Virus record (IMG/VR): IMGVR_UViG_3300042197_002946
Span: 32,001-96,000 of that record
DNA from: a virus
DNA length: 64,000 nt
Strand: one strand, 5' to 3'
Below the pieces are notes generated by a model that made no database searches, was not told the origin of the DNA, and saw only the letters and a program-made list of their open reading frames with translations. Positions 9,905-27,718 of the stretch are shown piece by piece. The number at the start of each line of letters is the position of its first letter. Positions within the stretch are counted from its first letter, which is position 1. A program made the position numbers and the translations under genes.

Positions 9905-12900
9905 ATGGCTAAAGCTTTTAATCTTACAGCAGAATTAAATCTTAGAGGCCCATCTAATCTCAAGCAGATAGCAGCGTCCATTCGTAGAGAGATCGGGACC
10001 GTAGACGCTACTGTTAATGTTAAGATAGACAGAGCGGCCGAAAGATCCATACTTAATAGTGCTAATGCTCTAAATAGATTAAATAGAGAACTTCAGACAA
10101 CAGCAACAGCCTCAGCCTCATCCACCAATAACATCAACAACCTTGTCGCATCATTAAATAGCCTAAGTAATGCTTTGACTGGATCTAATAATTCTATGCA
10201 GCGCATAGTTTCTACATCAGAGCAAACAGCCAGACAAATGTCTCGAATTAGAAAGACGACAGCAGTAGCGCGAGATGAGATGGAAGAGTTTGGTCGTCAA
10301 TCAGCTTTGGCTGTGCGACGTTTTGCTGCCTTTAATTTTGCTACCGGAGTTATTTATGGTTTTTATAATGCAATTTCCAAAGCTTTGGGAGAATTTACAG
10401 AGTTTGATAGACAGTTGGTGCGATTAACGCAAATTACTGGAGAATCTTATAGCGAGCTAAGCAGGATAACAGAAACAATTACTGGATTATCAACCGGCTT
10501 GGGTGTTGCATCAGGAGACCTTATCCGCATATCGGATACATTAGCTCAGGCTGGCTTGAGTGCCAGAGAAACAGACCAAGCATTGAGGGCTTTGGCTTTG
10601 ACGGCTCTAGCTCCGTCCTTCGATGACCTGAATAACACTGTCGAAGGATCTATTGCATTAATGAGACAGTTTAAAATCGGTACTGATGATTTAGCTGGCG
10701 CTCTAGGTTCTATTAACGCAGTAGCTGCTGGTTTTGCTGTTGAGGCCGGTGATATTATTACAGCTATTCAGCGTACTGGTGGTGTGTTTGCCGCAGCTAG
10801 TAAAGGGGTTAGCGAAGGCACCGATGCGTTAAATGAATTTATTGCGGTATTTACTAGTGTAAGAGCCACAACTCGTGAAAGCGCAGAAACAATTGCTACA
10901 GGCTTGAGAACTATTTTTACTCGTATTCAACGAGAAGATACTATTGAGGCATTAAAAGAATATGGAGTTAATCTATTGGATGTAGAAGGTAAATTCGTTG
11001 GAGCTTATCGAGCTGTACAATTACTAAGCGAAGGTCTTGGCAAACTAGATCCTAGAGACGTAAGCTTTTCTAGAATAGTAGAAGAGCTTGGTGGATTTAG
11101 ACAGATTGGTAAGGTGCTTCCGTTGATTCAAGAATTCAGCACAGCACAACAAGCTTTAACAGTAGCTCAAAGAGGGCAAAATTCATTAGCGGCAGATGCA
11201 GCCAAAGCTCAGTCAGCATTAACAGTACAGTTTACCAAGACTAGAGAGTCATTTGTTGCTTTAATTCGAGATATTGGCAGTAGCGATAGCTTTAAAACAC
11301 TTATTAGTTTAGGCTTGACACTAGCTAATACATTCATCAAAGTAGCTGATTTCGCCAAGCCTCTACTTCCCATCCTAACAACCATCGCAGCATTACAAGG
11401 AGCTAAATCGTTAACGAGTTTTGTTGGTGGTTTCGTAGGGGGATTGCGTAAAGTACGTCCGGGAGAAGACGGAGGGGGCGGTGGAGGACCAGCTAATAGG
11501 GCTAGAACTGAAAGATCAGCCGCAGACATTACAGATAACTCTAGATATTTAGACGCCAACACCACAGCTTTGATGGGTCTGGGTACAGCTATGGGGGGTC
11601 TAACAGCAGTTATTAGTCCATTACAAGCTTCTATAGATAATTTGGGTAATGCAGCTATAGCTCAATTAAATAATGAGATTGTTGCTCTGAACAACACTAT
11701 GAGCAGTATTGATCTAGGCGGAGCCGCAACAGCTAAAGATGGTGGCAGAATATTACGTTTTGCTAGAGGAGGAGCTGTTCCTGGTAGCGGACGAGGAGAC
11801 AAAGTTCCGGCCATGCTGGAACCCGGTGAAGTTGTTATGAGCAATCGGGCTGTTAGTAAGTATGGAAGAGGTAATTTGGTAAGGATGAATAAGTATGCAA
11901 AAGGAGGAAAACCAAAAAGAGGAGTTCCTAATCAAGTTAATACTACGGATGTGGTTGATGGAGATACAATTGGTGCAGACATTTTCACCAATCTAACATT
12001 TAGATTTAGCGGAATTGACGCTCCAGAAAAATCTGAACCGCTTGGTGACAAAGCGACATCGGTATTGACTAACAAGAAGTTGAGCTACTTTAATAACAAA
12101 ATCACAAGTGGCGTCGGAGGTAAATCCAGGGGCTTATTTAAAGACGATGCATTAGCTGGCCAAATGATTCGTAGTGGTTTGGCAGTTCCAGATATAAGAT
12201 ATGCTAAGAACAAATTTAGTAGTGATGTTGAAGCAGGTAGAGCAGCAGGACAGGGCTTATGGAATAGTTCGTATGCTAATCATCCTAAAAGATTACAGTT
12301 TAAAGAGCAATACGGATATAGTTTTGGGGGTCAAATTCAAAAATTTATGAGCGGATCAGCCGGAGGAGTTAAGTCTAAACCCGAACCATTCGGTACAGGA
12401 GTCACCAAATTTCCTCGTCGTATAAGTAATGCCTACGCTAAACAGACGGAAAAGGAAAAGACAGATAGACATTTTGATAGACTCATACAAAACAGTCCTA
12501 TTAATGAAAGAATCATGGTTGATGAGGCTATGGAACAGCAGATATCCCAAGGGATGCAGCAGCCATTAGATCGTGAAAAATTTGCAGCGTCTTTTAGACG
12601 AGCTGTTTTAAGAGACGAAATAGCATCCAACATATCTAATTTTGCTAAATTGGTTGGACTTCCACAAGAAGATTTGTCTGTAGTATTACCAAGACAACTA
12701 GATTTTGGCTCTGGTTCTGGTCCTATAGGATCTCGTGGAGGTAGAGATGTTTTAGGTGGGGCTTTTACAACCATTAGTCCTTATGGTAGTCGTGGAGCAG
12801 AAGGCTGGGATCTTAGTGAGTTTGGTTATACTAAGCAGGACGAACAAGACCTATTCGGCTTAGAAAAACTGTTAGAAGAAAAGAAAAAAGAACGTGATAA

Positions 12901-15900
12901 AATACGCAAAACTCCAACACGTACTTTTGATGATGGTAGTTTTAGCTATGATTTGCAAGCCGCTGATAAGGCTAGCGATGAATATAATGCATTAAATAAA
13001 CAGATATATGATATTAGAAAAAAAAGAGATACTGCTATTTCTGCGGCCAACAAAGCTAGAGAAGAAGAAGTTGCATCATCTGGTAGAGCCACATTAGGTT
13101 TTGGTACTAGATTTGGTAAGGCTCAGAACCCTGTATTTTATCACGAATTAACACATCAACTATTCAAAGGATTAAGAGCAAAATCTGCTGATAGTTTTGA
13201 AAAATACAAGCAAAGAGTAACAACATTATTTGAAACCGACAACGATGGTTTGGCAGATGCTTTTGATGCTCTAGGTGCCGGTTATAGTAGTGCTGATGTT
13301 GTTTATGGACGAGCATATAAGCTAGATTTATTAGGAGCTAGACAAAGAGAAGAAATTAGAAAAGATCCAGCAGGAGAAGATGTTAAAAATCTGTCATCTA
13401 TTATTAAGTCTGGAAGTGCAGCTAAAAAAGCAACACAATTTCGCCCAATCAATCCAAGTTTCAATGAGGCTATGCTTAAGTTTTATAGCCAAGAGCATTT
13501 GGATAAGGTTGAAGATAATGGCAAAGAAGAATTCTTAACGACTCTTGTAGAAAAAATGCCGGTGTTGGACCAGCGTTTACAGGGCATATTGGACTCCACG
13601 ATGACAGAATTGTTGGGTGGAGCAGGAATACAGAGACAACAATATTTTGATGGTGGTTGGGTAGAAAGAATGAAAACACAACCAGACGACATATTACGTC
13701 GAGAGCTGCAGATGTTGCATTCTGGCAGTTTTATGCTATCGGTAGGAGAACGAAAAGTTTTAGCAAGTACTTTTGCTGGTCTTGGCAAATATGAAGATAT
13801 TGGAAAAAGAGAATTAGTAGCACGTATGCAGGCTATAAAAGATTATTTAGACGAAAGAGCTATTAACCAAAAAACAAAGTACGCAAAACGCAGAGGTCCT
13901 GGTCTACAAGCTACTGAAAAGTACAATGAACAAGAAATGTTGGATGCTGTTAACTACTATGCTGCTGGTAGTGGTCCTTTCACAAAGGCATTGGTTTCTG
14001 GCGCCAAAACGTTTAAGGAGCCCAGAGGAGAGACCTATAAAACAAAAGATATTAAAGATAGGCTATTAGCAGCTAGTCAATTTACAATCCCAAAGAAAAC
14101 CTATAGTGGTTTAGGACGAAGTCAATTTAGAGAAATATTGAGCGATACAAATACCACTCCCAAAAAACTTGCCACCAAAACAGACGAGACTTTACGAGGT
14201 TTGGTTGGTCAGACTATAGATTTTCCGACATTTTTATCCGTTAGCGCACAAAAAGATCAAGCAGAAGCTTTCGTACAAAATCCTGGAGCATTATTAAGTA
14301 TCGATGGTAGTAGTACAAGTCAAAAAACTATTGATGTTGTCAAAGCAAGAAGAAAAACACAAATTGATGACAGTGCGATTAAATCTAGCAGAAGATTAAA
14401 GGGCATAGAAAACATTAGCGAAAAAAAATTAGATATATACGAAGAAGAACAAGAGTTTATTGTTCCTCCTAATGTTGGTTTTAAAATCACCAAAGCCACA
14501 GGCACAGTTTACCAAGACCTTTCTGCTAAAGACTTAAAATCAAAATCTAAAAAAGCATTATCAGTATTTGATGATATCGATATGTTTTCTGATCCGGATA
14601 TTGATGATTTTGACAAGACTAGGCTCGATATTAAAGTGAATATGTTGAGATCGGGAGGTATTGTTCAAAAGTTCATGGACGGTGGAGTTGCTCAACGTAA
14701 GCTTGGTTATATAGACTATGATGTGATAGCTAATCCGGCTAATGAAGCTGTTGTAGCTAAAGGTATGGAAGCTACTGGAGTTAGCGGTCCTAGATTATAT
14801 ACTGATAAATTAATTGAAATGGCAGTCAAAGCCAGAAAAGAGCAGAGCTTAAATAAGCTTCGAGCTATTTATGGTGTTGCCGGAGCAGGAAAAACCACTA
14901 TGGCTCGTGGACAAGGTACCGACAAAGGAACTCTGCGAGAAACAACAAGATTTCCTATATTAAGTCCAGAGGATATTCATAGAGCCAATGAAATTATTCT
15001 ATTAAGTAGTAGTGTATCGCAAGATAAGTTGGATACACTATTTGCTGATGTAGATAGAGCTTATACTCTTAGTAGTACCACATCTGAAGAAAAAGAAAGA
15101 ATTAAAAGCCAAAGAGCAAGTCGAGACGCGACTGGAGTTGGTTTAGAGGGTCGTACTCCAGGATCAACTACTGGAGTTGCTAGGGATACTGTGGTAGGAG
15201 AAGCATTACTTGCTGATCGTTTAGGCGATAGGTCGGTTGTTCTAGGTCGTACGGAAAGTGGTAGACTAAGACGAAAAAGAGGGGACGAGCTTGTTGAAAT
15301 AGTTAAAAAGCGCATAGGAATGACTTGGGGCGGTTTTGCTCCTATGACAGCAGGACATGAAAGCATATTAGATGCTGCTGCTGCTATGGGCATATCTCCA
15401 GAAGACTTTGTATTTTTAGTAGGTTCTAATGAAAGCATAAAGCTTGGTGATCCATCTTCCTATAGAACAGCAATATTTAATCAAGACGCAAGAGTATTAT
15501 TAGCTAAAGCCGGAGCCGGAGCACGAGGAGCTACCGTAGTACCAAAAGCAGCAGATTTTGAGGTTCCTCTTGGTATAGATATTTCTGAACAAGAAGGCCG
15601 CAGAAAAGTGTTGTTGCCGGGCGAGGGCAGCACAGTTTTTGTTGCAGACAAAACAGAACAACAAACTGCAAAATATCGAGAAGCAGGATATAAGGTTAGT
15701 CATATAGAGCGCACGGGCGGAATTAGCGGCACTATGGTGAGAGATTTGATCATGAGCGGCAACATGGCCGAACTACAAAAGGTCTTAAGTCCAGGAGTTT
15801 ATGACTTAATTTCTAATAATATTGGGCGAATTCAGAATAGAGCTAATGTTTTACCAGATATTATAGAGCAGGTAAAACAAAGTCAGGGAGTTAAATTAGC

Positions 15901-18900
15901 AGAAGTTGAGAGAGCCATTAAGGCTGTGGGTATTAGCAGAATAGACCCAAAGAAGATGGAAGATCCAGAGTATGCTGCTAAAGTGCAAGTTTTAGAAGAG
16001 TTAAGATCACAAAGAGATAAGATTAAAAGATCAGCAGCTTTTGAGCCATACAGATTATTAGATAAATTAGCAGCTTCACAACCAGAACAATACGCTCTTG
16101 ATTTTAGTCAATCTCAGATAGCAACACCAGCGCCAGTACGTACAGTTAAAGACAGAGCCATGGCAGCAGTTGCAGCAGAAACCTCATCGTTGACATCGGT
16201 GTCTTCTGGGGATGCTGGTATCGGTACGGGACAATCCTTATTAGATAATTTGGCCACTAGACTTAAAGCACTAGGAGGAGAATCTGGTCTAAAAGCACTT
16301 CTCAAAGAAGTTGGAGAAGGTATTCCTTTGAATTTACAGAAACAATTACGCACAGACCAGATCAAACGGGGTGTTCTAGATACTGCTCGTGTTACTGGTC
16401 TTATTGAAAAAGCCGAAGAGAGACAGAGACAGAAAAAAGCTGAAAGAGAAGGCACAAGACATGTGGCTATGGCTGGACTACAGCCGTTAGATTATAGCTG
16501 GGACCCTGAATGGGAACTTGCTGATGGACGCAAATATATTGCTACTATTAGAGGATTTAAAAGCTCATATTTACAAGATATACAAAGATTTAGAGATAGA
16601 CAAAAAGCAGCCGCACTAGAATTTGGTAAAGATACAACAGCTACCGAGGCACTAGATCTATTAGGACAAAACACAGTACAAGGACCATCACGACCTCTGG
16701 CTATAGATTTTGATGAGACGTTAGCATTTGGCACAAAAATGTTAGACTCATCAGGTCAAGAAGATATCAGCGCTTATTATGATGAAGCCAGAGTGCGAGA
16801 GGTTTTATCTAAAGCAACACCCACAAGATTAGCACAAAGATTATTAGAGATAGAGAAAGATCAACCTGGTACTGTCAGAGCATATACACGAGTATTAACC
16901 GCACGAGCAGAATCATTAAAGCATTTAGTAACAGAAACACTGAATCGGTTCGGATTACCATATACTGATAGCGATATTACTGGAGTAGGACAAAGGGGAG
17001 ACAACGATAGAGCGATAGCTCGTAAAAAAGCCGATAATCTTAGCACAATAGAAAGATTTATTGACGATAATGAAAAGAACATCTCTGCTGCACAACAAAA
17101 AGGCATACAGTCTTACAGATACTCGGAACCTAAAGCTTTTGAGAATGCCTCCGACTATGAACCTTTTGGCGCTGGTAATATTGAGGGAGCTTTATTAGAA
17201 CAAACTTTGGCTATGAAAATTGGTCGGCCTATAGATTTTGAAGCTCTTGAACAAAATCGTGCTTTAGATTTTCCTAATGGTCTTGGAGCTGCTGCGTCGT
17301 TGTTTGGGCTACCACCCAATATAGAAACAGAAGTTAAGCGCACACTAAATAAGGATAGTTTTACAAAAGCTCGTAGTGAATTCAACAGATACTTTAAAGA
17401 AAATCCCGATAAGTATAATGCTGGTGGGGTTGCAGGATTTGCCGACGGAGGAACTGTACCAGCATTAGTTAGTAACGGAGAAGCTTATGTTCCTCCAAAA
17501 CTTGCTAAAAAAATAGGTTATGGCAAGCTAAACAGAATGAATCAAGCTGACCGTAATGGCATGGGTCGCTTCGCTGATGGGGGCATTAGCGTATTTAAAG
17601 GTCCAGGCAGTGGCACTAGCGATAGTATTCCAACCAGTTTACCAGTAGGAAGTTTCGTTATTAGAGCAAAGGCCACCAAGGCTTTGGGTCTTAATAGAGG
17701 AGGTAGCGTAGGAGTTACATCGCCTCAAAGATTTGAAATGGGCGGAGAAGTACTAACGGCCGCCGAAATGCAAAGACTAGAGTTGGACATGCGTAAAGTT
17801 TTTGAGTCTTTACCTGAACAATTACGAGACTCTATACGCAATTTAGACTTGCCGGATGTTGATACCAGCACATGGAATACCATAGATATTTCTTTAAGAA
17901 AAGTTTTCTTATCAGTAAATAGAAATGTTGATACTCTAGGTAAGGATGTTGTTGAGGCTATGAGAGCCATGACAACTGCTGGTCAAAATGCTTTGCAAAG
18001 TATCGATTTAGATAGAGTGCGCACTAGACAGTCGGAGATAGCTAGTGACAGAGGATATACTCAAGTAGATAAAGATAGGATGAAAGCAGATGTTTCCTTA
18101 GCTAAAGATGCTAGAGGAGCGGTATCAGATCGTAAAAGAAAAAATAGAGAACGACAGGAACAAGGAAAAGCTCCATTTCCGATGTTGGATTTGATGGAGA
18201 TGATGAGATCATCTGTTGGTAGATCTCCAGACCCTATCAGTGTCACTGCCGCTACTCCAGTTCCAGAAGTACAGTCACCATCAAGAGATGCTGAATATTA
18301 TCGTCAGCGCATGAATTATAGTGATGTGTCTGGAAATAAAAATACCCCTATTAGTGATAGAGGCATGGCATATGCTGGAGAATTGACTAAACAAGATGAC
18401 TCTAAAGTTGATGCTCTAGTTAAACAAATGAGAGATATGTTTTCTTCTGCTATGGCTGGGATAGGACAAACTCCGAGCGCTGCTGGACAGAGTGAGAGCT
18501 GGGCAACATGGGATATTGGTAAACAATTATTCATGAATCAGAATCCAGATCAAAGTTCTGACAAGTACCAACTTGGTAATCCTATGCAAGATCCTAAGCT
18601 AGTACTACAAATGGTACAACGCATGGTGGGTTATGAGGTTAGTGGTGGTGGGCAAAGAGAAGGGAAAGCCAACAACATACCATCTTTTGAATTAGTAGAA
18701 ATTGGCGCCAAAGCAATGGCTGAAAGTTTAGGTAAAAACCAAGCAGCTTTGGATGCGTTTTTGAGCTTAGTGAGCGGTATAACCGTAGACGATATTGTCG
18801 GACCAGCATCACCAGGAGCGCCAACGTCACCAACGCCACCAACAGCACCAATTCCACCCACTCCTCCGACTCCTCCATCTGGAGGCTCTCCACCTTCAGG

Positions 18901-21900: not shown

Positions 21901-24900
21901 GGCAGAAGCTATCAATCAATACAAACAGGCTATCGAATTGCAGTCTCAAGCTAATCGTTACTTAGCTATGTTAGACGGTAGATTAGCTATAGACATTGGA
22001 CAGCAGTCTCAAGCAGCCTTTACTAACGCACTAAATGGTGTTGGTCAAGCTTTCGCTAATACCAATACAGCAGACATGGCTAAGGGTATTCAGCAATTAA
22101 ACGATCATCTCAGAGGCGGAGTTACCAAAGTTACAAATGTTGGCGGAGGTGGAGCCCTGCCTTTTGCTAGAGGAGGTAAGGTTGAATACCGAGCTGTTGG
22201 TGGGTCTATCTTCCAACCAAAAGGAACTGATACAGTACCAGCTATGTTAACTCCGGGAGAATTCGTAGTCAATAAGAGAGCCGCTTCTGCTAACAAAGGA
22301 ATTTTAACAGCTATTAATAATGGATACTCTAAAGGAGGTAGTGTCAAATATCTTGCTGAAGGCGGCTGGGTATCTGATATGTTAACTCCTGAAACCGATA
22401 GGTTCGGAGACGCTAAACCAGGGGAACTATATACCAAATGGGATGATTTTTCTAAGTTTGCCTCTGGCAATGATGTAAAAGCCAATATAGAAAAAATTAA
22501 AGCTAATAGTAAAGATATTTACTTTTATAAACCACACTCTTACCCAACATTCTCTGCTAGAGAAACTGAGAGTTCAGAATTGTTGTCTCAATTGAAATCT
22601 GGCATGGATGGAGATAATTCCTTTTTTGGTTTTCTTCCAGACTTTAGTATGAGTTTACTGAATACCGCAGGGAATATTATTGGAGCAACAGCACAAGGAG
22701 TTGGCACAGGGGCTGTGGGAGGCGCTGCTATGGCAGCTAATCCGGCTCAATTTGTATCTGCTACTGCTGCTGGTAATTTTTCACAAGGACAAAATACTGC
22801 CGGAGCTTTGTTGGGTAATGGTAAATTAGGAACAGCTGCGAGCTGGATATGGGAAGCTATGAAGTTTGTCCCAGGTTTAGGTGGAGTTGTTTCTGGTATA
22901 GACGCTTTTAAGAAATTAGTTTTTGATTATGATCTGATCGGTGGAGCACTAGAAGCCGTTAATGCTGTGTTCTCTCTAATACCATTTCCTGGAGCTGGCT
23001 TGCTTGGCAAGGGAATAAGTAAAGGATTGGGATGGATGATGAAAATTTTTGGAAAAGGTAGAGTAGCCACAATGGGTAAAACCTGGATACCTAAATTAAT
23101 AGAAGCCACTGGCGCAACAAGACTAATGAATACAGTAAAAGGATGGCTAGGTCAGGGGCCTGCTAATTTAGTGGAAAAATTACTACCAGATGTTGTTAAG
23201 AAAAAGCTTGGTCTAAATTTAGCTGGGGCTGGTAAATCTGGCGCAACGTTGGCTAGAGAAGGCATTGAACAAATGTCTCCTGATGTTTTGGATGCCTATA
23301 AAGCATATAGAAAAGCAGGAATGGCGGCTGATGAAGCTTTGGCTAGAGCTAAAGGCAGACTGAATTATGTGGGATCATCAACTAGCGGTATGCAAGCTTC
23401 GGCAGCACAAGCAGCAGCTAGAAATGCTAGCGATGCTGGGCTTGCTGGTAGAGCTACAATTAATGATATGGCCGCTAGGGCTGTCACAGGATCAGCATAC
23501 GGAGCCGGGGCTATGGGTACCGCCGCCGCTGGTACTGCATATATGCAGGGTCGAACACCCAGCGCAACCATGAGCGGGGCAGATAAACTGAAAAGTATCA
23601 CAGAAGCTCTTGGATTCAAGATCCCAGATCAGTTCAGAAGTCCAGAGACAACATCAAAAATCTTTGATGAAAATTTAGATAATTTAGCTCTGTCGGAGGC
23701 ACAGATGCAGTTATCTGCTGTTGAAATGTGGATCAAGGCTATAGATGAGGCTAATAAATGGTCAGAGACCAATAAGCCACCCAAAGCAAAGGCTTCGTAT
23801 TCCAATGGTTCTTATAATTTTACATCTGAACCAGTAAATAAAAAAGAGTATATGTATGCCACTATTGGAGAAGCACTAAGTACAGATGCTATCATGGGTG
23901 ATTTGAAACCCAATATAATTAAATTCTACAAGAGCGGTAATCCTACTTTATCTAATAGTCCAGACACCAATCAAATCAGCGCAGCTGCCGAGAGTTTCAT
24001 CAAGTCACAAGGTCGAGATTTTGATCAGTTATTAAGTACAGATAACTATAATAGATTTCAAGACATTAACAGTATCAAAGACTATTTACAAGATTACTAT
24101 GATAGTTTAAGAGAAATTAACACTGCAACCACGACACCAGAAAAATATAACTCCGCACACTGGAGTCCTGCTCAACCATCTAAACAAAAAGAAGGCAGAA
24201 TCTCCTCTATCTTAGGGTCTTTGCAGGCCGGTACTAGATATAGCTATGATTTTAAGAAATCTGAATTAGCCAAAGTCAGTGATTTCCAATGGGGGTCATC
24301 CGCACCAGCACCCGCTAAGGATGGAGAAAAACCCGCAGAATCCAAAGATACTGGAGATGTATTAACCGTTTATGGTACCGAAATGAGGGCGATTTGGTCA
24401 AATATTAGAGATGCTGAAGATGAAACTATCAAAGAGGCCATAAAGAATAAAAATATATGGGATGGAAAAGCAGAGAACGCTTTTAGAATTTACAAACAGG
24501 GATCATCTCCTGATCAATATGATCCTCTACCATGGACAACCAATCCGTCTTTAATTACAGCTGGAATGAGACAATTAGCTCAACAGTCTACGGAAGATAA
24601 TATAGCAAGTACTATAGGATTAAAAATGGGAACAGTGTCTCGTTTTGATAAAGTCATCGACCTGCCGAAAGCAAAAAGAGAACTACCAGTAAGCTTTAGC
24701 TACCAACCCTTCCAACAAATCCCACTATTAGATCCAGCGACTACAGATATTGATAGTGCTGTTAATCAATTTTTACCAGGAGCAACTTCAACAGAACCTA
24801 GTCCCACCCCTGTTCCTGGTGTGTTTATTAAATACAGAGCTACCGAAGCGGCAGACCCAACCCTCAGCCCATTCTCATCAATGGCTCCTGGGGCAGATAA

Positions 24901-27718
24901 GCTTATGCCTTATTATAGTAGTGTAGCTAATATGGAGAAAGCTGTCAACGATTGGGCATTAGGTAATTTTGATAGGGTGGCCGACTGGAGCTTGCTCGGA
25001 GTATCTCTTGCATCGGGATATTCGCCCATCAAGGCAGAAGCAGCAATGAAAAGCGCCGAGAGTATCAGAGGAGCCAGAACAAAAAGAAAGAGCAAAGAAG
25101 GATCTGTACCAGATAAAGAATCATCTATTAATAGTGCTACAGAATATTTATTTAAAAAAGATGCATTATTCTATAAGGATGATTTCTTATCGGCGGTGGA
25201 ACCATCATATCCAGAAGCTGGAAATATTGCAGGAGCTAAAATACCTAACCTTGTTGATATTATGCAGAGACGTGCGGCTAGGCAAATAGCTGGCAATAAA
25301 GATGCGAAAAAGGCAGAGATATCAGCTAAGGCCAGTTTAGTTAATTTCAAGAGCGAAGAAGTTCCTTTATTAGGTGATATTGTTTGGCAAAAAATTAAAG
25401 AATCATCACTAGCTGCTGGACCAGCATTATCTAGTGCTGCTGATTGGCAAAATGCAGCAACTGCTGACGGTGTTCCACCACCAGCTAAAATTAGTGGTCA
25501 AGACGATTTAATGGCAGCTGTGGACTATATAGCTTGGATTCAGGCTAAGGTACTAAGACTAAGAGATAAGGCCACAGAACAAAATAATAGAGAGTCTGTT
25601 GAAAATCTAGGCTCTGAAGCTGAATTTGGTAAGTACATGAGTGCTGGAAGATTTTTAAGTCAACTAGCTTCTGATTCTGAAAGGCCAGTAACAGCTAGTA
25701 CCACCATAGGACAAGCCAGTGAGAGACTGTACAGTAAATATATGAACGAGAATAAACTAGATAAATATATCAAAAAGTCTGCATTCAAGGACAAAGACTC
25801 TGGGAAAGATATAGAACAACAGTTCTGGGATGTTCCTAAAATTATCAATGAAGACAAAAGTTTTGTAGATTATATTCTTGGTTTTGCTAATCAGACTCGC
25901 ACAGCTCAAAGATTCAGACAAGCTGTCACAGGCAACGGTAGGGCAGAGCTGGGTGGTGAGCAGAAAGCGCTACTGCAAGGACAATTCAAAGCTTTTGGTC
26001 AATCAAAGAGCGCTACTGCTATGATGGGATCTGGAGCTAAAGATGCTGCTCAAACAACGATGAAAGTAGCTAGTGCTGATGGTATAGAAGAAATTGCTAT
26101 TCCAACAGAAATAGATAATGTTATTGATCAATTTTTAGATACTAGTAAGGTTTATGAACCACTATACAGAGAAACTTTAGGCAAAATACTTGAGACTAAC
26201 GGTAGAACATACGCAGAAAAATGGACAAAAAGCGGAGACCCAGGCACTGCTGGATGGGCTTCTATATGGGGAGAGTATTCAGAGCAACTCACAGCTTTAA
26301 CTGACTTTTTAGTTAATAGAGACAGATTATTAATGAGACCCATAGCAACCGAAGGGTCTTCTTTATATCCTCCAGCCGTCTTGCCATCTATCTCAGAAAG
26401 CTTATTGCCCACTTTACAATCTGTTGCTCAGGTTTCTGGCATTAAGCCCCCAGAAGATGTCACGGCCGAAACGCTATTGGGAGCTATTAATGATAGAGCA
26501 TTGATGATGGAGCAGATCAAGAGATTTATGGCCTCGGTTTCTCCCACTGCCCCAGAGGACTACGAGAAACGCGATCAAATGAAGAAAATAGCCAAACAAG
26601 CGATGGATTTTTATGAAAACAATCTGTCCCCATCTTCGTTACCTAGAGTCTTTACTCAAGAGGGTAATGAGATATGGAATAAATTACGAGAAAATTATAA
26701 AGCTGCAAATGAAGCGTATATGGGTTTTGCTGCTGATGGTAGCGATGTCTCTGTAGGACTAGGATCTTTGGAGGATATTTATAACCCATCACAAATGCCA
26801 TATGCACAAAATACATTATACGGTTTATATTATAGACTTAATAAACAAGCAGGTACTAATAATACAGTAGAGGCTCTTATGAATGAGAAGGCTGCTAAAG
26901 ACAAGGCAGCAGCAGCAGGAGCAACACCAAAACCAGAAACACAAACCCAAGACGTACCAGCACAAGCGGCAGCCGCTGCTCCCAAAGAGCCGGAACCAGG
27001 AATACCTCCAGAACCAACCAGAGAAGAAGCAGAAAGAAAAGTACAGGCCAGAGCTAAGGGTGGTCTAATTTATAGAGCTGATGGAGGAGCAGCTCCTGTG
27101 AATTGGAGCCCAAGAGGCACTGATACTGTACCAGCCATGTTAACTCCTGGCGAATTTGTGATCAATAGAGGAGCTACACAGAAATACTTACCAATTTTAG
27201 AAGCTATTAATAATGGCAGTACAACAGCTGGTCAAATTGTTACATATGCTAATCGTGGTGGAGTAATTAAACCTAAATATTTCCAAGTGGGTGGAAGTGT
27301 TGAAGGAGCCTCAAGTGGTGTATCTACTTCATATAGTATGGGGTTTGATAGTGCCACATTGGCCGCTATTAAGCAATTTGATAGCAGTGTTCAATCTCTT
27401 GGAGATGCTTTATCCGGATTACAACTTGGCAACATCAAAATAGATGAGGCTGCATTAAGTGCATTGGGGGATTTTGCTACACGATTTGATCAGTTTACAC
27501 AAAGCTTATTGAAACTCAATGTACCACCAGTTATTAGCATCACAGGACAACATGAGGTCAATGTGAATATTAATGGCACATCTGTATTTAATAATATGGA
27601 AGAGAAAATGAAGCAGCTTATTAGTCAAGAAGTGGATAAGGCTTTCACTCAGCTATCTAAGGAAACAGAAGGTAACATTACTATGAATTATAAGCCACCA
27701 CAATCACCCATGGGTTAA
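9905..27718 (+). CDS. Giant (5937 aa) tail tape-measure protein carrying multiple enzymatic domains
   Basis: N-terminal TP901-type TMP core (EFDRQLVRLTQITG...LAQAG...TRESAETIATGLRTIFTRI), hydrophobic segments, long Ala/Gln-rich helical regions, position after tube and chaperones; internal enzyme motifs listed separately. Confidence 0.9.
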   Translation: MAKAFNLTAELNLRGPSNLKQIAASIRREIGTVDATVNVKIDRAAERSILNSANALNRLNRELQTTATASASSTNNINNLVASLNSLSNALTGSNNSMQRIVSTSEQTARQMSRIRKTTAVARDEMEEFGRQSALAVRRFAAFNFATGVIYGFYNAISKALGEFTEFDRQLVRLTQITGESYSELSRITETITGLSTGLGVASGDLIRISDTLAQAGLSARETDQALRALALTALAPSFDDLNNTVEGSIALMRQFKIGTDDLAGALGSINAVAAGFAVEAGDIITAIQRTGGVFAAASKGVSEGTDALNEFIAVFTSVRATTRESAETIATGLRTIFTRIQREDTIEALKEYGVNLLDVEGKFVGAYRAVQLLSEGLGKLDPRDVSFSRIVEELGGFRQIGKVLPLIQEFSTAQQALTVAQRGQNSLAADAAKAQSALTVQFTKTRESFVALIRDIGSSDSFKTLISLGLTLANTFIKVADFAKPLLPILTTIAALQGAKSLTSFVGGFVGGLRKVRPGEDGGGGGGPANRARTERSAADITDNSRYLDANTTALMGLGTAMGGLTAVISPLQASIDNLGNAAIAQLNNEIVALNNTMSSIDLGGAATAKDGGRILRFARGGAVPGSGRGDKVPAMLEPGEVVMSNRAVSKYGRGNLVRMNKYAKGGKPKRGVPNQVNTTDVVDGDTIGADIFTNLTFRFSGIDAPEKSEPLGDKATSVLTNKKLSYFNNKITSGVGGKSRGLFKDDALAGQMIRSGLAVPDIRYAKNKFSSDVEAGRAAGQGLWNSSYANHPKRLQFKEQYGYSFGGQIQKFMSGSAGGVKSKPEPFGTGVTKFPRRISNAYAKQTEKEKTDRHFDRLIQNSPINERIMVDEAMEQQISQGMQQPLDREKFAASFRRAVLRDEIASNISNFAKLVGLPQEDLSVVLPRQLDFGSGSGPIGSRGGRDVLGGAFTTISPYGSRGAEGWDLSEFGYTKQDEQDLFGLEKLLEEKKKERDKIRKTPTRTFDDGSFSYDLQAADKASDEYNALNKQIYDIRKKRDTAISAANKAREEEVASSGRATLGFGTRFGKAQNPVFYHELTHQLFKGLRAKSADSFEKYKQRVTTLFETDNDGLADAFDALGAGYSSADVVYGRAYKLDLLGARQREEIRKDPAGEDVKNLSSIIKSGSAAKKATQFRPINPSFNEAMLKFYSQEHLDKVEDNGKEEFLTTLVEKMPVLDQRLQGILDSTMTELLGGAGIQRQQYFDGGWVERMKTQPDDILRRELQMLHSGSFMLSVGERKVLASTFAGLGKYEDIGKRELVARMQAIKDYLDERAINQKTKYAKRRGPGLQATEKYNEQEMLDAVNYYAAGSGPFTKALVSGAKTFKEPRGETYKTKDIKDRLLAASQFTIPKKTYSGLGRSQFREILSDTNTTPKKLATKTDETLRGLVGQTIDFPTFLSVSAQKDQAEAFVQNPGALLSIDGSSTSQKTIDVVKARRKTQIDDSAIKSSRRLKGIENISEKKLDIYEEEQEFIVPPNVGFKITKATGTVYQDLSAKDLKSKSKKALSVFDDIDMFSDPDIDDFDKTRLDIKVNMLRSGGIVQKFMDGGVAQRKLGYIDYDVIANPANEAVVAKGMEATGVSGPRLYTDKLIEMAVKARKEQSLNKLRAIYGVAGAGKTTMARGQGTDKGTLRETTRFPILSPEDIHRANEIILLSSSVSQDKLDTLFADVDRAYTLSSTTSEEKERIKSQRASRDATGVGLEGRTPGSTTGVARDTVVGEALLADRLGDRSVVLGRTESGRLRRKRGDELVEIVKKRIGMTWGGFAPMTAGHESILDAAAAMGISPEDFVFLVGSNESIKLGDPSSYRTAIFNQDARVLLAKAGAGARGATVVPKAADFEVPLGIDISEQEGRRKVLLPGEGSTVFVADKTEQQTAKYREAGYKVSHIERTGGISGTMVRDLIMSGNMAELQKVLSPGVYDLISNNIGRIQNRANVLPDIIEQVKQSQGVKLAEVERAIKAVGISRIDPKKMEDPEYAAKVQVLEELRSQRDKIKRSAAFEPYRLLDKLAASQPEQYALDFSQSQIATPAPVRTVKDRAMAAVAAETSSLTSVSSGDAGIGTGQSLLDNLATRLKALGGESGLKALLKEVGEGIPLNLQKQLRTDQIKRGVLDTARVTGLIEKAEERQRQKKAEREGTRHVAMAGLQPLDYSWDPEWELADGRKYIATIRGFKSSYLQDIQRFRDRQKAAALEFGKDTTATEALDLLGQNTVQGPSRPLAIDFDETLAFGTKMLDSSGQEDISAYYDEARVREVLSKATPTRLAQRLLEIEKDQPGTVRAYTRVLTARAESLKHLVTETLNRFGLPYTDSDITGVGQRGDNDRAIARKKADNLSTIERFIDDNEKNISAAQQKGIQSYRYSEPKAFENASDYEPFGAGNIEGALLEQTLAMKIGRPIDFEALEQNRALDFPNGLGAAASLFGLPPNIETEVKRTLNKDSFTKARSEFNRYFKENPDKYNAGGVAGFADGGTVPALVSNGEAYVPPKLAKKIGYGKLNRMNQADRNGMGRFADGGISVFKGPGSGTSDSIPTSLPVGSFVIRAKATKALGLNRGGSVGVTSPQRFEMGGEVLTAAEMQRLELDMRKVFESLPEQLRDSIRNLDLPDVDTSTWNTIDISLRKVFLSVNRNVDTLGKDVVEAMRAMTTAGQNALQSIDLDRVRTRQSEIASDRGYTQVDKDRMKADVSLAKDARGAVSDRKRKNRERQEQGKAPFPMLDLMEMMRSSVGRSPDPISVTAATPVPEVQSPSRDAEYYRQRMNYSDVSGNKNTPISDRGMAYAGELTKQDDSKVDALVKQMRDMFSSAMAGIGQTPSAAGQSESWATWDIGKQLFMNQNPDQSSDKYQLGNPMQDPKLVLQMVQRMVGYEVSGGGQREGKANNIPSFELVEIGAKAMAESLGKNQAALDAFLSLVSGITVDDIVGPASPGAPTSPTPPTAPIPPTPPTPPSGGSPPSGGGSPPVPPSSPPSGDTEAMIQRYMMELETAAKATKLQTYQTERLAGATASEAKARADAAAFAAYQALAQQRLTTATTEEASAINEARSRMAATRGGATVTAQEFTPVAQSLSRGGAPAPDTTDYRKLAQDNIQALQEMNTSALAWAGGSVLAIKGLSGLVGSSTALGSALDGVSNSVGNTQALFLGFNKVLRFASEIGVSEEASKKIEDFSAKLIDAGRMVNNWAAKLPDGLFKNLASKLGGGIDLGGGQLGKLGAKLPQVISSVTSSLTAIMPTAQLVVGGLNAAAQAFIAYTDAIRNNKVENATKALDTSLKNASSALDLYNKNTVDNANQLSVMNAEIGRAAAAAKTLADIDKTNQKWSTTNLIGETLAMGGGGAESRAQRAEILDKKGTMAYVGSLLDFTGGTQQRYSQELAPQQAIKSSEQFAKVATLIQQQNQARFKAGESSSDIMNSPEWAQQAEVIARANAATEERLRLIDADISLSKSAREARKQELIQFAAAGAVRSQEIQAIRQANNDRANQESGALLYSLERMLNNMEQSISSVTYSLSKLADQTDLLRSSMTGEAKIGSSRVDAINVLQNPNVSSDVERAQASKTASQFFGAQGKDIEGLLNFGPKLEETILSSINRTVKEDPNAGSGKIEARISQNLEKELGKLNIDAGLRQVVSKQMAGSITDSRTKGDDKTDFKTLFSETAAFGKIVQSTKRAQEAAVKALEFYQQSVNNYAQSMNEMVSLQISSNEKFRRASDIRARGELDLAKTLGKSVSFEKSKQVAQAGVISQAGTADPTAIFNNIGRLEQVRQSQQGALNSAVQGGPRNQKDIIAFNRELASTTMGLRENYAALKGLAESTEVAQAAMTKIGELKAKNEAGLNILERFVTSSPKDQAKLSGAFERLDRNMNGQINNMWDSARVQEAYNEALQSGASMQEAQDAADSAAAQDRGDTLEAFRMLAPMLGENQNELKANMLESMMRESGTETSPMFSKVIEGLRNPEQDPQMAEAINQYKQAIELQSQANRYLAMLDGRLAIDIGQQSQAAFTNALNGVGQAFANTNTADMAKGIQQLNDHLRGGVTKVTNVGGGGALPFARGGKVEYRAVGGSIFQPKGTDTVPAMLTPGEFVVNKRAASANKGILTAINNGYSKGGSVKYLAEGGWVSDMLTPETDRFGDAKPGELYTKWDDFSKFASGNDVKANIEKIKANSKDIYFYKPHSYPTFSARETESSELLSQLKSGMDGDNSFFGFLPDFSMSLLNTAGNIIGATAQGVGTGAVGGAAMAANPAQFVSATAAGNFSQGQNTAGALLGNGKLGTAASWIWEAMKFVPGLGGVVSGIDAFKKLVFDYDLIGGALEAVNAVFSLIPFPGAGLLGKGISKGLGWMMKIFGKGRVATMGKTWIPKLIEATGATRLMNTVKGWLGQGPANLVEKLLPDVVKKKLGLNLAGAGKSGATLAREGIEQMSPDVLDAYKAYRKAGMAADEALARAKGRLNYVGSSTSGMQASAAQAAARNASDAGLAGRATINDMAARAVTGSAYGAGAMGTAAAGTAYMQGRTPSATMSGADKLKSITEALGFKIPDQFRSPETTSKIFDENLDNLALSEAQMQLSAVEMWIKAIDEANKWSETNKPPKAKASYSNGSYNFTSEPVNKKEYMYATIGEALSTDAIMGDLKPNIIKFYKSGNPTLSNSPDTNQISAAAESFIKSQGRDFDQLLSTDNYNRFQDINSIKDYLQDYYDSLREINTATTTPEKYNSAHWSPAQPSKQKEGRISSILGSLQAGTRYSYDFKKSELAKVSDFQWGSSAPAPAKDGEKPAESKDTGDVLTVYGTEMRAIWSNIRDAEDETIKEAIKNKNIWDGKAENAFRIYKQGSSPDQYDPLPWTTNPSLITAGMRQLAQQSTEDNIASTIGLKMGTVSRFDKVIDLPKAKRELPVSFSYQPFQQIPLLDPATTDIDSAVNQFLPGATSTEPSPTPVPGVFIKYRATEAADPTLSPFSSMAPGADKLMPYYSSVANMEKAVNDWALGNFDRVADWSLLGVSLASGYSPIKAEAAMKSAESIRGARTKRKSKEGSVPDKESSINSATEYLFKKDALFYKDDFLSAVEPSYPEAGNIAGAKIPNLVDIMQRRAARQIAGNKDAKKAEISAKASLVNFKSEEVPLLGDIVWQKIKESSLAAGPALSSAADWQNAATADGVPPPAKISGQDDLMAAVDYIAWIQAKVLRLRDKATEQNNRESVENLGSEAEFGKYMSAGRFLSQLASDSERPVTASTTIGQASERLYSKYMNENKLDKYIKKSAFKDKDSGKDIEQQFWDVPKIINEDKSFVDYILGFANQTRTAQRFRQAVTGNGRAELGGEQKALLQGQFKAFGQSKSATAMMGSGAKDAAQTTMKVASADGIEEIAIPTEIDNVIDQFLDTSKVYEPLYRETLGKILETNGRTYAEKWTKSGDPGTAGWASIWGEYSEQLTALTDFLVNRDRLLMRPIATEGSSLYPPAVLPSISESLLPTLQSVAQVSGIKPPEDVTAETLLGAINDRALMMEQIKRFMASVSPTAPEDYEKRDQMKKIAKQAMDFYENNLSPSSLPRVFTQEGNEIWNKLRENYKAANEAYMGFAADGSDVSVGLGSLEDIYNPSQMPYAQNTLYGLYYRLNKQAGTNNTVEALMNEKAAKDKAAAAGATPKPETQTQDVPAQAAAAAPKEPEPGIPPEPTREEAERKVQARAKGGLIYRADGGAAPVNWSPRGTDTVPAMLTPGEFVINRGATQKYLPILEAINNGSTTAGQIVTYANRGGVIKPKYFQVGGSVEGASSGVSTSYSMGFDSATLAAIKQFDSSVQSLGDALSGLQLGNIKIDEAALSALGDFATRFDQFTQSLLKLNVPPVISITGQHEVNVNINGTSVFNNMEEKMKQLISQEVDKAFTQLSKETEGNITMNYKPPQSPMG
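11940..12270 (+). other. SNase/thermonuclease-like domain within TMP
   Basis: VVDGDT, FRFSGIDAPE, MIRSGLA, A...GQGLW. Confidence 0.85.
12380..13640 (+). other. Zincin-like metallopeptidase domain within TMP
   Basis: VFYHELTHQL (HExxH at 13142-13156) and downstream KEEFL (~13523). Confidence 0.65.
13930..14644 (+). other. ADP-ribosyltransferase (VIP2/C3/Alt-like, R-S-E clade) domain within TMP
   Basis: TYSGL (YRG position, 14102), FPTFLSVS (FxSTS position, 14231), A..F, LLSI, EQEFIVPPNVGFKIT (ExE at 14447-14455). Confidence 0.75.
14860..15200 (+). other. P-loop (Walker A) kinase-like domain within TMP
   Basis: AIYGVAGAGKTTMAR at ~14864-14908; downstream RIKSQRASR lid-like segment. Confidence 0.7.
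15310..15830 (+). other. (H/T)xGH nucleotidyltransferase (cytidylyltransferase/NMNAT-like) domain within TMP
   Basis: GGFAPMTAGH (15329-15358) and ISGTMVRDLI (15722), then LSPGVYDLI. Confidence 0.8.
16690..17125 (+). other. HAD-superfamily phosphatase domain within TMP
   Basis: Motif I LAIDFDETL (16706), motif II VLTAR, motif III RKK, motif IV FIDDNEKNI (17063). Confidence 0.85.
17160..17400 (+). other. Probable PD-(D/E)xK nuclease-fold domain within TMP
   Basis: GALLEQ...ALDFP...ETEVKR spacing (E 17198, D 17267, ExK 17330-17338). Confidence 0.45.

What the first reader, a model, noticed from the sequence alone, without database searches (positions are those of the whole stretch)
11732..27295. 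Recurrent phi-x-x-G-G punctuation marks the cargo-block boundaries in the TMP
Seen: paired motifs AKDGG-RILR-FARGG (11732/11759), YSFGG-QIQK-FMSGS (12317), LRSGG-IVQK-FMDGG (14645/14672), YNAGG-VAG-FADGG (17414/17438), LNRGG...FEMGG (17690/17732), FARGG-KVEY-RAVGG (22163), YSKGG-SVKY-LAEGG (22325), RAKGG-LIY-RADGG (27050), ANRGG...FQVGG (27248/27281), plus singles YAKGG (11894), YFDGG (13643), FADGG (17570). They separate SNase | zincin | ART | kinase-NTase-HAD-nuclease | helical rod | block 2 | C-terminus. Established: di-glycine sites are cleavage signals for adenain, the ASFV polyprotein protease and ubiquitin-like proteases. Inference: these are protease sites or sorting tags that release individual effectors, and possibly recombination joints for cargo exchange.
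Basis: partly seen in the sequence, partly recalled or inferred. Interest (0 to 1): 0.88.

Follow-up and report, generated by a model that had tools for sequence, protein, structure and literature searches.

The report
Glycine-capped joints in giant tape measure
A 5,937-residue phage tail "ruler" protein is divided by a short, conserved, glycine-capped joint that also sits next to the place where phage lambda cuts its own ruler protein. Related phages gain, lose and reorder enzyme-like inserts at these joints, but whether the joints are cut here is untested.

Summary
Observation confirmed. Every listed motif is at its stated coordinate in one ORF (9905-27718, 5,937 aa, tape-measure N-terminus). 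Against shuffles, [FY]xxGG occurs 12 times versus 2.7 expected, and GG pairs 10 times versus 0.4.

Nine of the 12 items are flanks of five copies of an ~80-aa module: GG-strand-GG, a VPAMLTPGEFV core, a helix, then GG-strand-GG. The other three are stand-alone seams between cargo cassettes.

The module matches lambda gpH 731-796 (hhalign E 3e-7). This lies just downstream of the glycine-rich stretch where gpH is cut to gpH* and gpHC.

A profile search found 22,623 proteins with the module. The best 150 are giants of 2,300-7,900 aa with 4-11 copies.

Relatives gain, lose and reorder cassettes at these seams. In an AlphaFold model, both GG-bearing flanks of one cassette are disordered.

Interpretation partly supported. 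The recombination-joint idea is partly supported. Cleavage is plausible by the lambda precedent but unshown, and no JAB, C48, C5, C39, C57, S78 or ClpP protease was found in the genome.

This scan had already found the same architecture in at least five other genomes, with the same reading.

The parts
9905..27718 (+). Giant tape measure protein gene, 5,937 aa, no cysteine
   Evidence: ORF list and translation. Pfam PhageMin_Tail at aa 191-384, E 2e-21, plus TMP PHROGs. Zero Cys.
11696..11938 (+). Module copy M1 (aa 598-678). N-flank AKDGG-RILR-FARGG, core VPAMLEPGEVV, C-flank YAKGG.
   Evidence: Self-BLAST, alignment A1, hmmsearch envelope.
11942..12316 (+). SNase-like cassette (aa 680-804)
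   Evidence: Weak Pfam SNase hit, E 0.0079, below the cut-off; phrog_452 endonuclease, E 2.8e-4. Shared by about 7-10 of 150 relatives.
12317..12367 (+). Stand-alone mini-joint YSFGG-QIQKFMSGS-AGG (aa 805-821)
   Evidence: Homology blocks of the next cassette start at aa 793-808 in 9 relatives. pLDDT below 50 in the model.
12368..13642 (+). Zincin-like cassette (aa 822-1246), with invariant HExxH
   Evidence: Found in 12 or more relatives at different positions in their proteins. HELTH and EDNGKEEF are invariant in A3. AF2 pTM 0.61 with a folded core at aa 833-1247. No PDB fold match.
13643..13657 (+). Single seam YFDGG (aa 1247-1251)
   Evidence: Sixteen homology blocks end at aa 1250-1259 and four start at 1240-1249. 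In relatives the cassette ends ...IQRQKY-x-x-GG and different cassettes follow.
13658..14644 (+). ART-like cassette (aa 1252-1580)
   Evidence: Homology blocks q1245-1597/1606 in three relatives, at different positions. ART identity was not tested here.
14645..14686 (+). Stand-alone mini-joint LRSGG-IVQKFMDGG (aa 1581-1594)
   Evidence: Twenty-four homology blocks start at aa 1570-1589. The same joint precedes the kinase cassette in P0060. It matches the family consensus GG-x-[IV]-Q-[KR]-F-x-x-GG.
14687..16204 (+). Kinase/nucleotidyltransferase cassette (aa 1595-2100)
   Evidence: Shared by 27 relatives. Weak Pfam HIGH_NTase1_ass hit at aa 1930-1974.
16211..17392 (+). Composite cassette D (aa 2103-2496), PNK/HAD-like. 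Its N-boundary and three internal breakpoints carry no GG motif.
   Evidence: phrog_415 polynucleotide kinase at aa 2329-2425. In relative G001 the same cassette is preceded by a mini-joint, NLGG-LIQKFSIGG.
17393..17791 (+). Tandem modules M2 (aa 2497-2555) and M3 (aa 2547-2629)
   Evidence: The tandem pair is conserved across the family and in cultured Nodularia phage 2AV2.
22127..22384 (+). Module M4 (aa 4075-4160), with full four-GG architecture
   Evidence: AF2 of this copy with 70 homologues gives mean pLDDT 57; only the helix is confident.
27029..27289 (+). Module M5 (aa 5709-5795), the terminal copy. It is followed by about 140 aa shared with about 85 relatives.
   Evidence: Its position is like that of the single module in lambda gpH.

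Best explanation
The phi-x-x-GG motifs are the glycine caps of a short strand-like unit of about 8-9 residues (x-[IV]-x-x-[FY]-A-x-G-G).

Two such units lie on each side of a hairpin-plus-helix core (G-T-D-T-V-P-A-M-L-T-P-G-E-F-V-V-N ... L-x-x-I-N). Together they form an ~80-aa module that ordinary tape measure proteins carry once near the C-terminus. In lambda this is gpH 731-796.

In this lineage of giant tape measures the module and its bare strand unit have been multiplied. They serve as standard, flexible, unstructured joints. Five full modules bracket the two cargo blocks. Bare seams separate cargo cassettes.

Shown:
- The motifs are real and conserved across a large family.
- They lie in disordered linkers at the edges of a folded cassette.
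- Cassettes are gained, lost and reordered at them.

Inferred, about 40% likely for the full modules and less for the bare seams: as in lambda, the chain is cut in or just upstream of the N-side GG units during tail maturation or after ejection. The cutting activity would not be encoded as a recognisable protease in this genome. Cutting would separate ruler segments from cargo.

If the chain is not cut, the joints act as hinges and registration or docking points.
For: - Coordinates and enrichment.
- Five module copies.
- Four-GG consensus over 745 module instances, with GG occupancy of 68-94%.
- Mini-joints outside modules: 185 observed versus 21 +/- 5 expected, consensus GG-x-[IV]-Q-[KR]-F-x-x-GG.
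- Homology to lambda gpH 731-796: hhalign probability 93%, E 3e-7; 79%, E 1.7e-5 with the deeper alignment; hmmsearch 27.7 bits.
- Lambda gpH is cut in its glycine-rich region to a ~78-kDa gpH* and a ~14-kDa gpHC, with site and protease unknown (PMC12617516). Fragments of that size place the cut at gpH 706-721, which is 12-27 residues upstream of FATGG.
- T5 pb2 is cut after R1127 (PMC10038345), which reads FVPR|AEGG.
- Cassette mosaicism at the seams.
- Disordered GG flanks around a folded cassette.
- The module is not an autonomous fold.
- Family-wide, 71% of module edges and 42% of mini-joints carry a pile-up of homology-block ends, against about 20% for random sites.
Against: - No cleavage data exist for this protein or any relative.
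- No JAB, C48, C5, C39, C57, S78 or ClpP protease is in the 150-kb genome.
- The embedded zincin-like cassette is in only about 10% of relatives, so it cannot be a general processing enzyme.
- The fixed 7-residue spacing between GG caps and the more than 90% identity of the core look more like a binding or oligomerising element than a protease site.
- The same GG flanks occur in cargo-free single-module tape measures.
- T5 pb2 is not detectably homologous.
- About two thirds of family-wide breakpoints are not at GG elements.
- Four breakpoints in this protein have no GG motif.
Confidence: 0.5

Rival explanations
1. The joints are never cut. The module core and GG-capped strands fold only in the assembled trimer or hexamer, or on a partner such as the tail tube lumen, the hub or the assembly chaperone. 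They tie the chains in register on either side of cargo blocks that cannot form a coiled coil. The glycines are hinges.
For: - As a monomer the module is predicted unstructured except for one helix, although it is very conserved.
- The GG-to-GG spacing is fixed, and the residues between alternate hydrophobic and polar, as in a beta strand.
- Full modules sit exactly at the transitions between conserved backbone and cargo blocks.
- C-terminal parts of tape measures are trimeric and bound to the hub in lambda, T5 and 80alpha.
- The GG flanks are present in cargo-free tape measures.
Against: - Lambda cuts its tape measure right next to the homologous module.
- Enzymes with different targets, tethered in one 650-kDa chain, would be hard to deploy.
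- No oligomer model could be computed here.
Confidence: 0.35
2. These are classical di-glycine protease sites, cut after GG by a dedicated cysteine or JAMM protease (adenain, Ulp, C39 or JAB type) that releases every effector. This is what the first reader proposed.
For: GG motifs lie in exposed linkers at cassette edges. From established knowledge, those proteases cut after GG.
Against: - None of PF14464, PF02902, PF00770, PF03412 or PF03290 is present. The one weak C57 hit lies inside a DNA polymerase III alpha gene.
- The residue four before the cut position is mostly Ala, with the aromatic residue one further back, rather than the hydrophobic P4 of adenain, Ulp or C39 sites.
- The only mapped tape-measure cut, in T5, lies before A-E-G-G, not after GG.
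Confidence: 0.08
3. The module is a self-processing element. Once the tail is assembled, its conserved core promotes cleavage of a flanking glycine-rich segment without a separate protease.
For: - No protease has ever been assigned to lambda gpH cleavage, which happens only in assembled tails.
- None was found here.
- The core is more than 90% conserved, including D, T, E and N residues.
Against: - Between this family and lambda only P-A, G-E-F-V and the flanks are conserved. The D, T and N residues are not, so no conserved catalytic set exists.
- The similarity to an intein is not significant, E 0.088.
- Bare mini-joints lack the core.
Confidence: 0.08
4. The motifs have no role in the protein beyond being tolerated linkers. 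They persist only because they are the points where cassettes were joined by recombination.
For: Cassette boundaries coincide with the seams.
Against: - There is no DNA-level repeat at the joints that could drive recombination.
- Amino-acid conservation of the joint is strong across proteins that are only 30-50% identical elsewhere.
- The flanks are conserved in single-module tape measures that have no cassettes.
Confidence: 0.04

Closest known systems
Phage lambda tape measure gpH, C-terminal glycine-rich region, and its maturation to gpH* plus gpHC (Tsui and Hendrix 1983, as reviewed in PMC12617516)
   Same: - The module aligns to gpH 731-796 (FATGG ... [11 protein letters not shown] ... helix ... 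YATGG) at hhalign E 3e-7.
- It lies in a tape measure protein.
- Copy M5 has the same near-C-terminal position.
- Both proteins lack cysteine.
   Different: - Lambda has one copy and no cargo. This protein has five full copies, three bare seams and two cargo blocks.
- The lambda cut site and protease are still unknown, and no cut has been shown here.
- No Pfam model covers the module. Tape_meas_lam_C ends upstream, at gpH 701.
Phage T5 tape measure pb2, cut after R1127 between the hydrophobic stretch and the C-terminal peptidase (PMC10038345)
   Same: A tape measure is cut between the ruler and an enzymatic domain, and the fragment stays in the virion. The site reads FVPR|AEGG, which resembles the phi-A-x-GG cap.
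   Different: There is no detectable homology to the module: hhalign probability 0.5-2% and no hmmsearch hit. T5 has one enzyme domain, not a train of them.
Polyvalent proteins of phages and conjugative elements (Iyer et al. 2017, PMC5512222)
   Same: A giant virion-associated polypeptide that strings together unrelated enzyme-like domains in mosaic order. It sometimes includes a zincin that has been proposed to process it.
   Different: - That paper does not mention tape measures.
- Its proteins are head-packaged or conjugation-delivered, and no shared joint motif is described.
- Here the carrier is the tail ruler, the joints are one conserved motif, and the zincin-like cassette is in only about 10% of relatives.
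Tape measures with embedded cell-wall hydrolase motifs (several phages, cited in PMC12617516; mycobacteriophage TM4 from my own knowledge)
   Same: Enzymatic activity carried inside the tape measure and delivered through the tail.
   Different: Those carry one or two small wall-degrading motifs. Here there are multiple cytoplasm-type enzyme-like cassettes (nuclease, kinase, nucleotidyltransferase, phosphatase-like) separated by standard joints.
Di-glycine processing sites of adenain, ASFV pS273R, Ulp/SENP and C39 bacteriocin-leader peptidases
   Same: A GG dipeptide at an exposed boundary.
   Different: The upstream residues differ (aromatic at P5, Ala at P4). No such protease is in the genome. 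The GG caps come in pairs with fixed spacing.

Membership tests
Lambda-gpH-type tape-measure terminal module | Lies in a tape measure protein | tested here: met
   Pfam PhageMin_Tail E 2e-21 and TMP PHROGs at the N-terminus of the same ORF. All 23 cultured-phage tblastn hits to the module lie in annotated tape measures.
Lambda-gpH-type tape-measure terminal module | Sequence-profile similarity to gpH 731-796 (phi-A-x-GG, P-A...G-E-F-V hairpin, helix, Y-A-x-GG) | tested here: met
   hhalign probability 93%, E 3.1e-7; 79%, E 1.7e-5; hmmsearch 27.7 bits at gpH 733-803.
Lambda-gpH-type tape-measure terminal module | Single copy near the C-terminus | tested here: not met
   Five copies are present. 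Only M5 is near the C-terminus. Cultured single-module tape measures (Rhizobium, Burkholderia, Shewanella, Brevundimonas) fit the rule.
Lambda-gpH-type tape-measure terminal module | Proteolytic cut next to the module during tail maturation | not testable with these tools
   Needs virion protein chemistry. Known only for lambda.
Di-glycine protease substrates (adenain, Ulp, C39, JAB) | Cognate protease encoded by the element | tested here: not met
   PF14464, PF02902, PF03412 and PF00770 give no hit. PF03290 gives 15 bits, inside a DNA polymerase III alpha gene. A host enzyme cannot be excluded.
Di-glycine protease substrates (adenain, Ulp, C39, JAB) | Hydrophobic residue four before the cut, followed by x-G-G | tested here: not met
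   Of the 22 listed motifs, two have a large hydrophobic residue at that position (FMDGG, YFDGG; FMSGS only if the degenerate GS is counted). Most have Ala, with the aromatic residue one position further back. Family consensus is [YF]-A-x-G-G.
Di-glycine protease substrates (adenain, Ulp, C39, JAB) | Cleavage immediately after GG | not testable with these tools
   No proteomic data are available.
Polyvalent proteins (Iyer et al. 2017) | Several unrelated enzymatic domains in one very large virion-delivered polypeptide with mosaic order among relatives | tested here: inconclusive
   Mosaic order is shown. Domain identities rest on weak hits: SNase E 0.008, NTase E 0.001-0.003, PNK phrog E 0.0015. 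The zincin rests on an invariant HExxH only, with no fold match. Delivery was not tested.
Self-cleaving modules (intein/Hint-like) | Significant similarity to a Hint fold, with a conserved nucleophile at the junction | tested here: inconclusive
   The best PDB sequence hit is the Pho RadA intein at E 0.088, which is not significant. The module is not predicted to fold alone. The protein contains no Cys.

The most novel reading that the evidence does not exclude
The module is the long-sought determinant of tape-measure maturation. It would be an assembly-triggered, protease-independent (or host-protease-recruiting) cutting and hinge element. In lambda it would produce gpH* and gpHC. Multiplied in these giants, it would turn the tail ruler into a train of separately released, cysteine-free effectors, delivered unfolded through the tail ahead of the DNA. 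The bare GG seams would be a standard plug-in interface for new cargo.
Probability: 0.15. Interest if true: 0.9.

Novelty: new variant of a known kind. Interest (0 to 1): 0.68.

Why it matters
If the joints are processing or docking points, a large uncultured group of phages uses the tail ruler as a modular delivery vehicle for enzyme cargo with a standard connector. At least 815 cluster representatives carry several modules.

Two questions become testable. First, where and how is lambda gpH cut, which has been open since 1983? Second, how can folded-size enzymes travel through a 4-nm tail lumen? The complete absence of cysteine in 645,000 residues of the family suggests passage or storage in an unfolded state.

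The connector is also a ready-made design rule for fusing cargo to tape measures in laboratory phages. The module has no Pfam model and could be catalogued.

Tried and rejected
- **T5 pb2 homology.** hhalign probability 0.5% and 2%, and no hmmsearch hit. Kept only as a motif-level resemblance.
- **Intein/Hint similarity of the core.** E 0.088, not significant.
- **PDB sequence search with M5 plus the C-terminus.** Only chance hits.
- **Pfam on single modules.** Nothing, even at E 10.
- **Fold identity of the zincin-like cassette.** Foldseek best E 0.12. The VIA-align wide list is dominated by a generic helical hairpin with Z up to 9.5. The zincin fold was neither confirmed nor excluded.
- **Proteases in the genome.** JAB, C48, C39, S78, C5 and ClpP gave no hit. 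The C57 hit is spurious and lies in DNA polymerase III alpha.
- **Neighbouring genes with precomputed Pfam.** They show no peptidase.
- **DNA-level repeats at the joints as recombination substrates.** Only the M4 and M5 cores share 82% over 65 nt.
- **Membrane-like hydrophobic segments.** None at Kyte-Doolittle 1.5 or more over 19 aa. A crude composition profile did not separate rods from cargo, so 'helical rod' stays unverified.
- **The search for related loci with the 5-sequence alignment.** Repeated with a single module.
- **Literature searches.** No paper in the held library describes multi-module or cargo-train tape measures.
Full report
**What is there.**
The window is bases 32001-96000 of a 150,336-bp IMG/VR virus record that CheckV rates as complete. 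The finding lies inside one ORF, 9905-27718 on the + strand, encoding 5,937 aa. Its N-terminus is a tape measure protein: Pfam PhageMin_Tail at aa 191-384 with E 2e-21, plus several TMP PHROGs. Larger tail-fibre-like genes follow downstream.

**Checking the observation.**
I compared the counts with 5,000 composition-preserving shuffles.
- [FY]..GG occurs 12 times against 2.7 +/- 1.6 expected.
- [FYLRA]..GG occurs 28 times against 14.1 +/- 3.7.

No shuffle reached the first or third count. The patterns were defined after looking at the data, so these numbers describe rather than test, but the excess is large.

**What the motifs belong to.**
Self-comparison shows five copies of one ~80-aa module, at aa 598-678, 2497-2555, 2547-2629, 4075-4160 and 5709-5795. 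The other three are stand-alone seams inside the first cargo block:
- YSFGG-QIQKFMSGS at aa 805
- YFDGG at aa 1247
- LRSGG-IVQKFMDGG at aa 1581

A gapped alignment of 745 module instances from relatives gives the full architecture. Percentages are how often each glycine position is occupied.
- GG (73/68%), then x-[IV]-[YF]-A-x-x-G(94%)
- F-Q-P-K-G-T-D-T-V-P-A-M-L-T-P-G-E-F-V-V-N
- a short helix ending L(95%)-x-x-I-N(96%)
- [YF]-S-x-GG (89/93%), then x-V-x-[YF]-x-A-x-GG (81/73%)

A full module therefore has four GG caps, two on each side of the core. The basic repeat is an 8-9-residue strand-like unit that ends in phi-A-x-G-G.

**Relatives.**
A profile of the five copies was searched against 1.84 billion representative proteins.
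- 22,623 proteins match at E 1e-3 or better, and 815 at E 1e-30 or better.
- The best 150 are all giants of 2,300-7,900 aa with 4-11 copies.
- Their layout is shared: tape-measure N-terminus, first module at about aa 510-690, a variable block, a tandem double module, a long segment, and further modules, with the last copy 100-200 aa from the end.

In cultured phages the module occurs only in annotated tape measures, usually once near the C-terminus and always with phi-A-x-GG flanks. Examples are Rhizobium RHph_Y3_1, Burkholderia vB_SBP33, Shewanella S0112 and Brevundimonas Domovoi.

One cultured phage has an internal tandem pair. Nodularia phage vB_NpeS-2AV2 has a 3,404-aa tape measure with modules at aa 984-1162. 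Its tail is reported as 795 nm long (PMC6293099).

**Link to lambda.**
Profile-profile comparison aligns the module to lambda gpH 731-796, which reads [35 protein letters not shown].
- hhalign gives probability 93% and E 3.1e-7.
- The 70-sequence alignment gives 79% and E 1.7e-5.
- hmmsearch gives 27.7 bits.

No Pfam model covers the module. Tape_meas_lam_C ends at gpH 701.

[quoted passage not shown] The exact site and the catalyst are unknown. Computed fragment masses put such a cut at gpH 706-721, which is 12-27 residues upstream of FATGG. A cut right after FATGG would give 80.1 and 12.2 kDa, which gel sizing could not distinguish.

The only mapped tape-measure cut is in T5 pb2, after R1127 (PMC10038345). 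In the sequence this reads FVPR|AEGG. That resembles the cap motif, but pb2 is not detectably homologous to the module. I treat it as a lead only.

**Do the motifs mark boundaries?**
BLAST of this protein against the 150 giants gives a step-like coverage profile. The number of relatives sharing each segment is:

| Segment | Relatives sharing it |
|---|---|
| N-terminus | about 130 |
| SNase-like segment | 7-10 |
| Zincin-like cassette | 15-18 |
| ART-like cassette | about 5 |
| Kinase/nucleotidyltransferase cassette | 27 |
| Next block (cassette D) | 16-70 |
| Second cargo block (aa 4200-5700) | 1 |

Block ends cluster at the seams.
- The zincin-like cassette aligns as q804/808-1251/1256 in a dozen relatives. 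It sits at positions from aa 94 to aa 2213 of their proteins.
- The ART-like cassette aligns as q1245-1597/1606.
- The kinase cassette starts at q1571-1593 in 27 relatives.

On this protein, 35% of block ends in cargo block 1 lie within 15 aa of a listed motif, against 6.4% for random positions. On the relatives' side, 58% have a phi..GG within 20 aa (null 16.5%) and 35% have a GG pair (null 4.2%).

Comparison with three relatives shows how the cargo changes at the seams.
- The closest relative overall, P0060 (5,292 aa), lies on the 238-kb contig that an earlier follow-up studied. It is colinear except that aa 694-1583 here correspond to 98 residues there. It runs SNase-like, NLGG-IIQKFEKGG, then kinase. 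This protein has the zincin-like and ART-like cassettes inserted between, each with its own seam.
- Relative G001 is 84% identical in module M4. It lacks SNase, zincin, ART and kinase altogether. It carries an unrelated ~300-aa cassette that ends in NLGG-LIQKFSIGG, directly before its copy of cassette D.
- Across relatives the zincin-like cassette always ends ...IQRQKY-x-x-GG. What follows is a module in one, a GG pair in another and the kinase cassette in a third.

The crossover point is therefore the phi-x-x-GG itself.

**Limits of the boundary claim.**
- Family-wide (all-against-all BLAST, blocks of 120 aa or more), 29% of block ends lie within 12 aa of a module edge (random 5.8%). Only 2.0% lie near mini-joints (random 1.0%) and 4.3% near single phi..GG motifs (random 3.1%).
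- 71% of module edges and 42% of mini-joints carry a pile-up of block ends, against about 20% for random sites.

GG elements are enriched at breakpoints but explain only about a third of them. Block ends from related sequences are not independent, so I give no p-values.

**Structure.**
AlphaFold2 on module M4 with 70 homologues gives mean pLDDT 57. Only the helix after the core is confident, at about 80. The module is not an autonomous fold as a monomer.

AlphaFold2 on the zincin-like cassette with both flanks (13 sequences) gives pTM 0.61. The folded core spans model residues 45-459, which are aa 833-1247. Both GG-bearing flanks have pLDDT below 50. The seams therefore sit in flexible linkers just outside a folded unit. 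The fold itself matched nothing convincing in the PDB. The zincin call rests on an invariant HExxH and a downstream EDNGKEEF.

**Candidate proteases.**
None of Prok-JAB, Peptidase_C48, C39, C5, S78 or ClpP is found in the genome. A 15-bit C57 hit lies inside a DNA polymerase III alpha gene. The 20 kb around the structural genes shows no peptidase in precomputed Pfam hits. The zincin-like cassette is in only about a tenth of relatives, so it cannot be the general processing enzyme.

**DNA level.**
The only repeat between joints is the M4/M5 core, 82% identical over 65 nt. The mini-joints share no nucleotide repeat. Exchange at the seams therefore cannot be explained by long homology within this gene.

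**Cysteine.**
The protein has no cysteine in 5,937 residues, against about 1% in the other long ORFs of this genome. The 151 family members hold 38 Cys in 644,851 residues, and 129 have none. Lambda gpH, T5 pb2 and the Nodularia and Brevundimonas tape measures also have none. The cargo cassettes thus obey a constraint typical of tape measures. This fits storage or transit in an unfolded state through the tail and an oxidising periplasm, though that is an inference.

**Reading.**
Shown:
- The motifs are real and conserved.
- They are part of an old tape-measure module.
- They lie in disordered linkers.
- Cargo is exchanged at them.

Inferred: by analogy with lambda, the full modules are places where the chain is cut during maturation or after ejection. 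I put this at about 0.4. The bare seams may be cut too or may be hinges only.

The main rival, at 0.35, is that nothing is cut. On that view the modules are registration or docking knots that order the trimer or hexamer on either side of cargo. This fits the fixed spacing, the very high core conservation, the lack of a monomer fold and the presence of the flanks in cargo-free tape measures.

Self-processing is possible but has no conserved catalytic set from lambda to here, also 0.08.

**Comparison with the literature and with this scan.**
The held library has no paper on multi-module or cargo-train tape measures, and the polyvalent-protein paper never mentions tape measures.

This scan had already followed up the same architecture in at least five other genomes and reached the same lambda link. 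I reached the lambda link before reading those notes (precedes).

New here:
- the four-GG anatomy of the module
- the two structure predictions
- the negative protease searches
- the T5 site read-out
- the lambda fragment masses
- the family-wide breakpoint statistics and their limits
- the three-way seam comparison with G001 and P0060
- the cultured Nodularia handle

Noticed in passing
window 9905-27718: There is no cysteine in 5,937 residues, and histidine is only 0.25%. The rest of the genome's long ORFs have about 1% Cys. The whole family has 38 Cys in 644,851 aa. Lambda gpH, T5 pb2 and the Nodularia and Brevundimonas tape measures also have none.
   Followed up: yes
L124:4379-14593 (Nodularia phage vB_NpeS-2AV2, KU230356.1): A cultured cyanophage with a reported 795-nm tail has a 3,404-aa tape measure. 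It carries an internal tandem pair of modules at aa 984-1162. This is a possible laboratory model for testing cleavage.
   Followed up: partly
window 18830-18960: A proline/serine/glycine-rich low-complexity stretch (about aa 2975-3015, PTPP and SGGSPP repeats) interrupts the long segment between M3 and M4.
   Followed up: no
window 22400-27000 (aa 4160-5709): The second cargo block is nearly unique. Only one of 150 relatives (P0060) aligns to it, and neither Pfam nor PHROGs finds anything there.
   Followed up: partly
window 27735-35201 and 43338-48524: Downstream giant proteins: a 2,488-aa ORF with weak antifreeze-type beta-roll repeats (below the cut-off), and a 1,728-aa ORF with RCC1 repeats.
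   Followed up: no
L108:2833-5017 (genome about 26.5-28.7 kb, upstream of the window): [quoted passage not shown] A 1,157-aa fn3-repeat protein and an RgpF glycosyltransferase follow.
   Followed up: no
L111:394-2268 (genome about 124.1-126.0 kb, minus strand): A 624-aa DNA polymerase III alpha fragment (PHP plus NTPase domains) is encoded by the phage.
   Followed up: no
L116 (IMGVR_UViG_3300044591_001745) and P0060: The closest relatives differ sharply in cargo. One lacks four of this protein's five block-1 cassettes, and another lacks two. The backbone stays 55-84% identical.
   Followed up: yes
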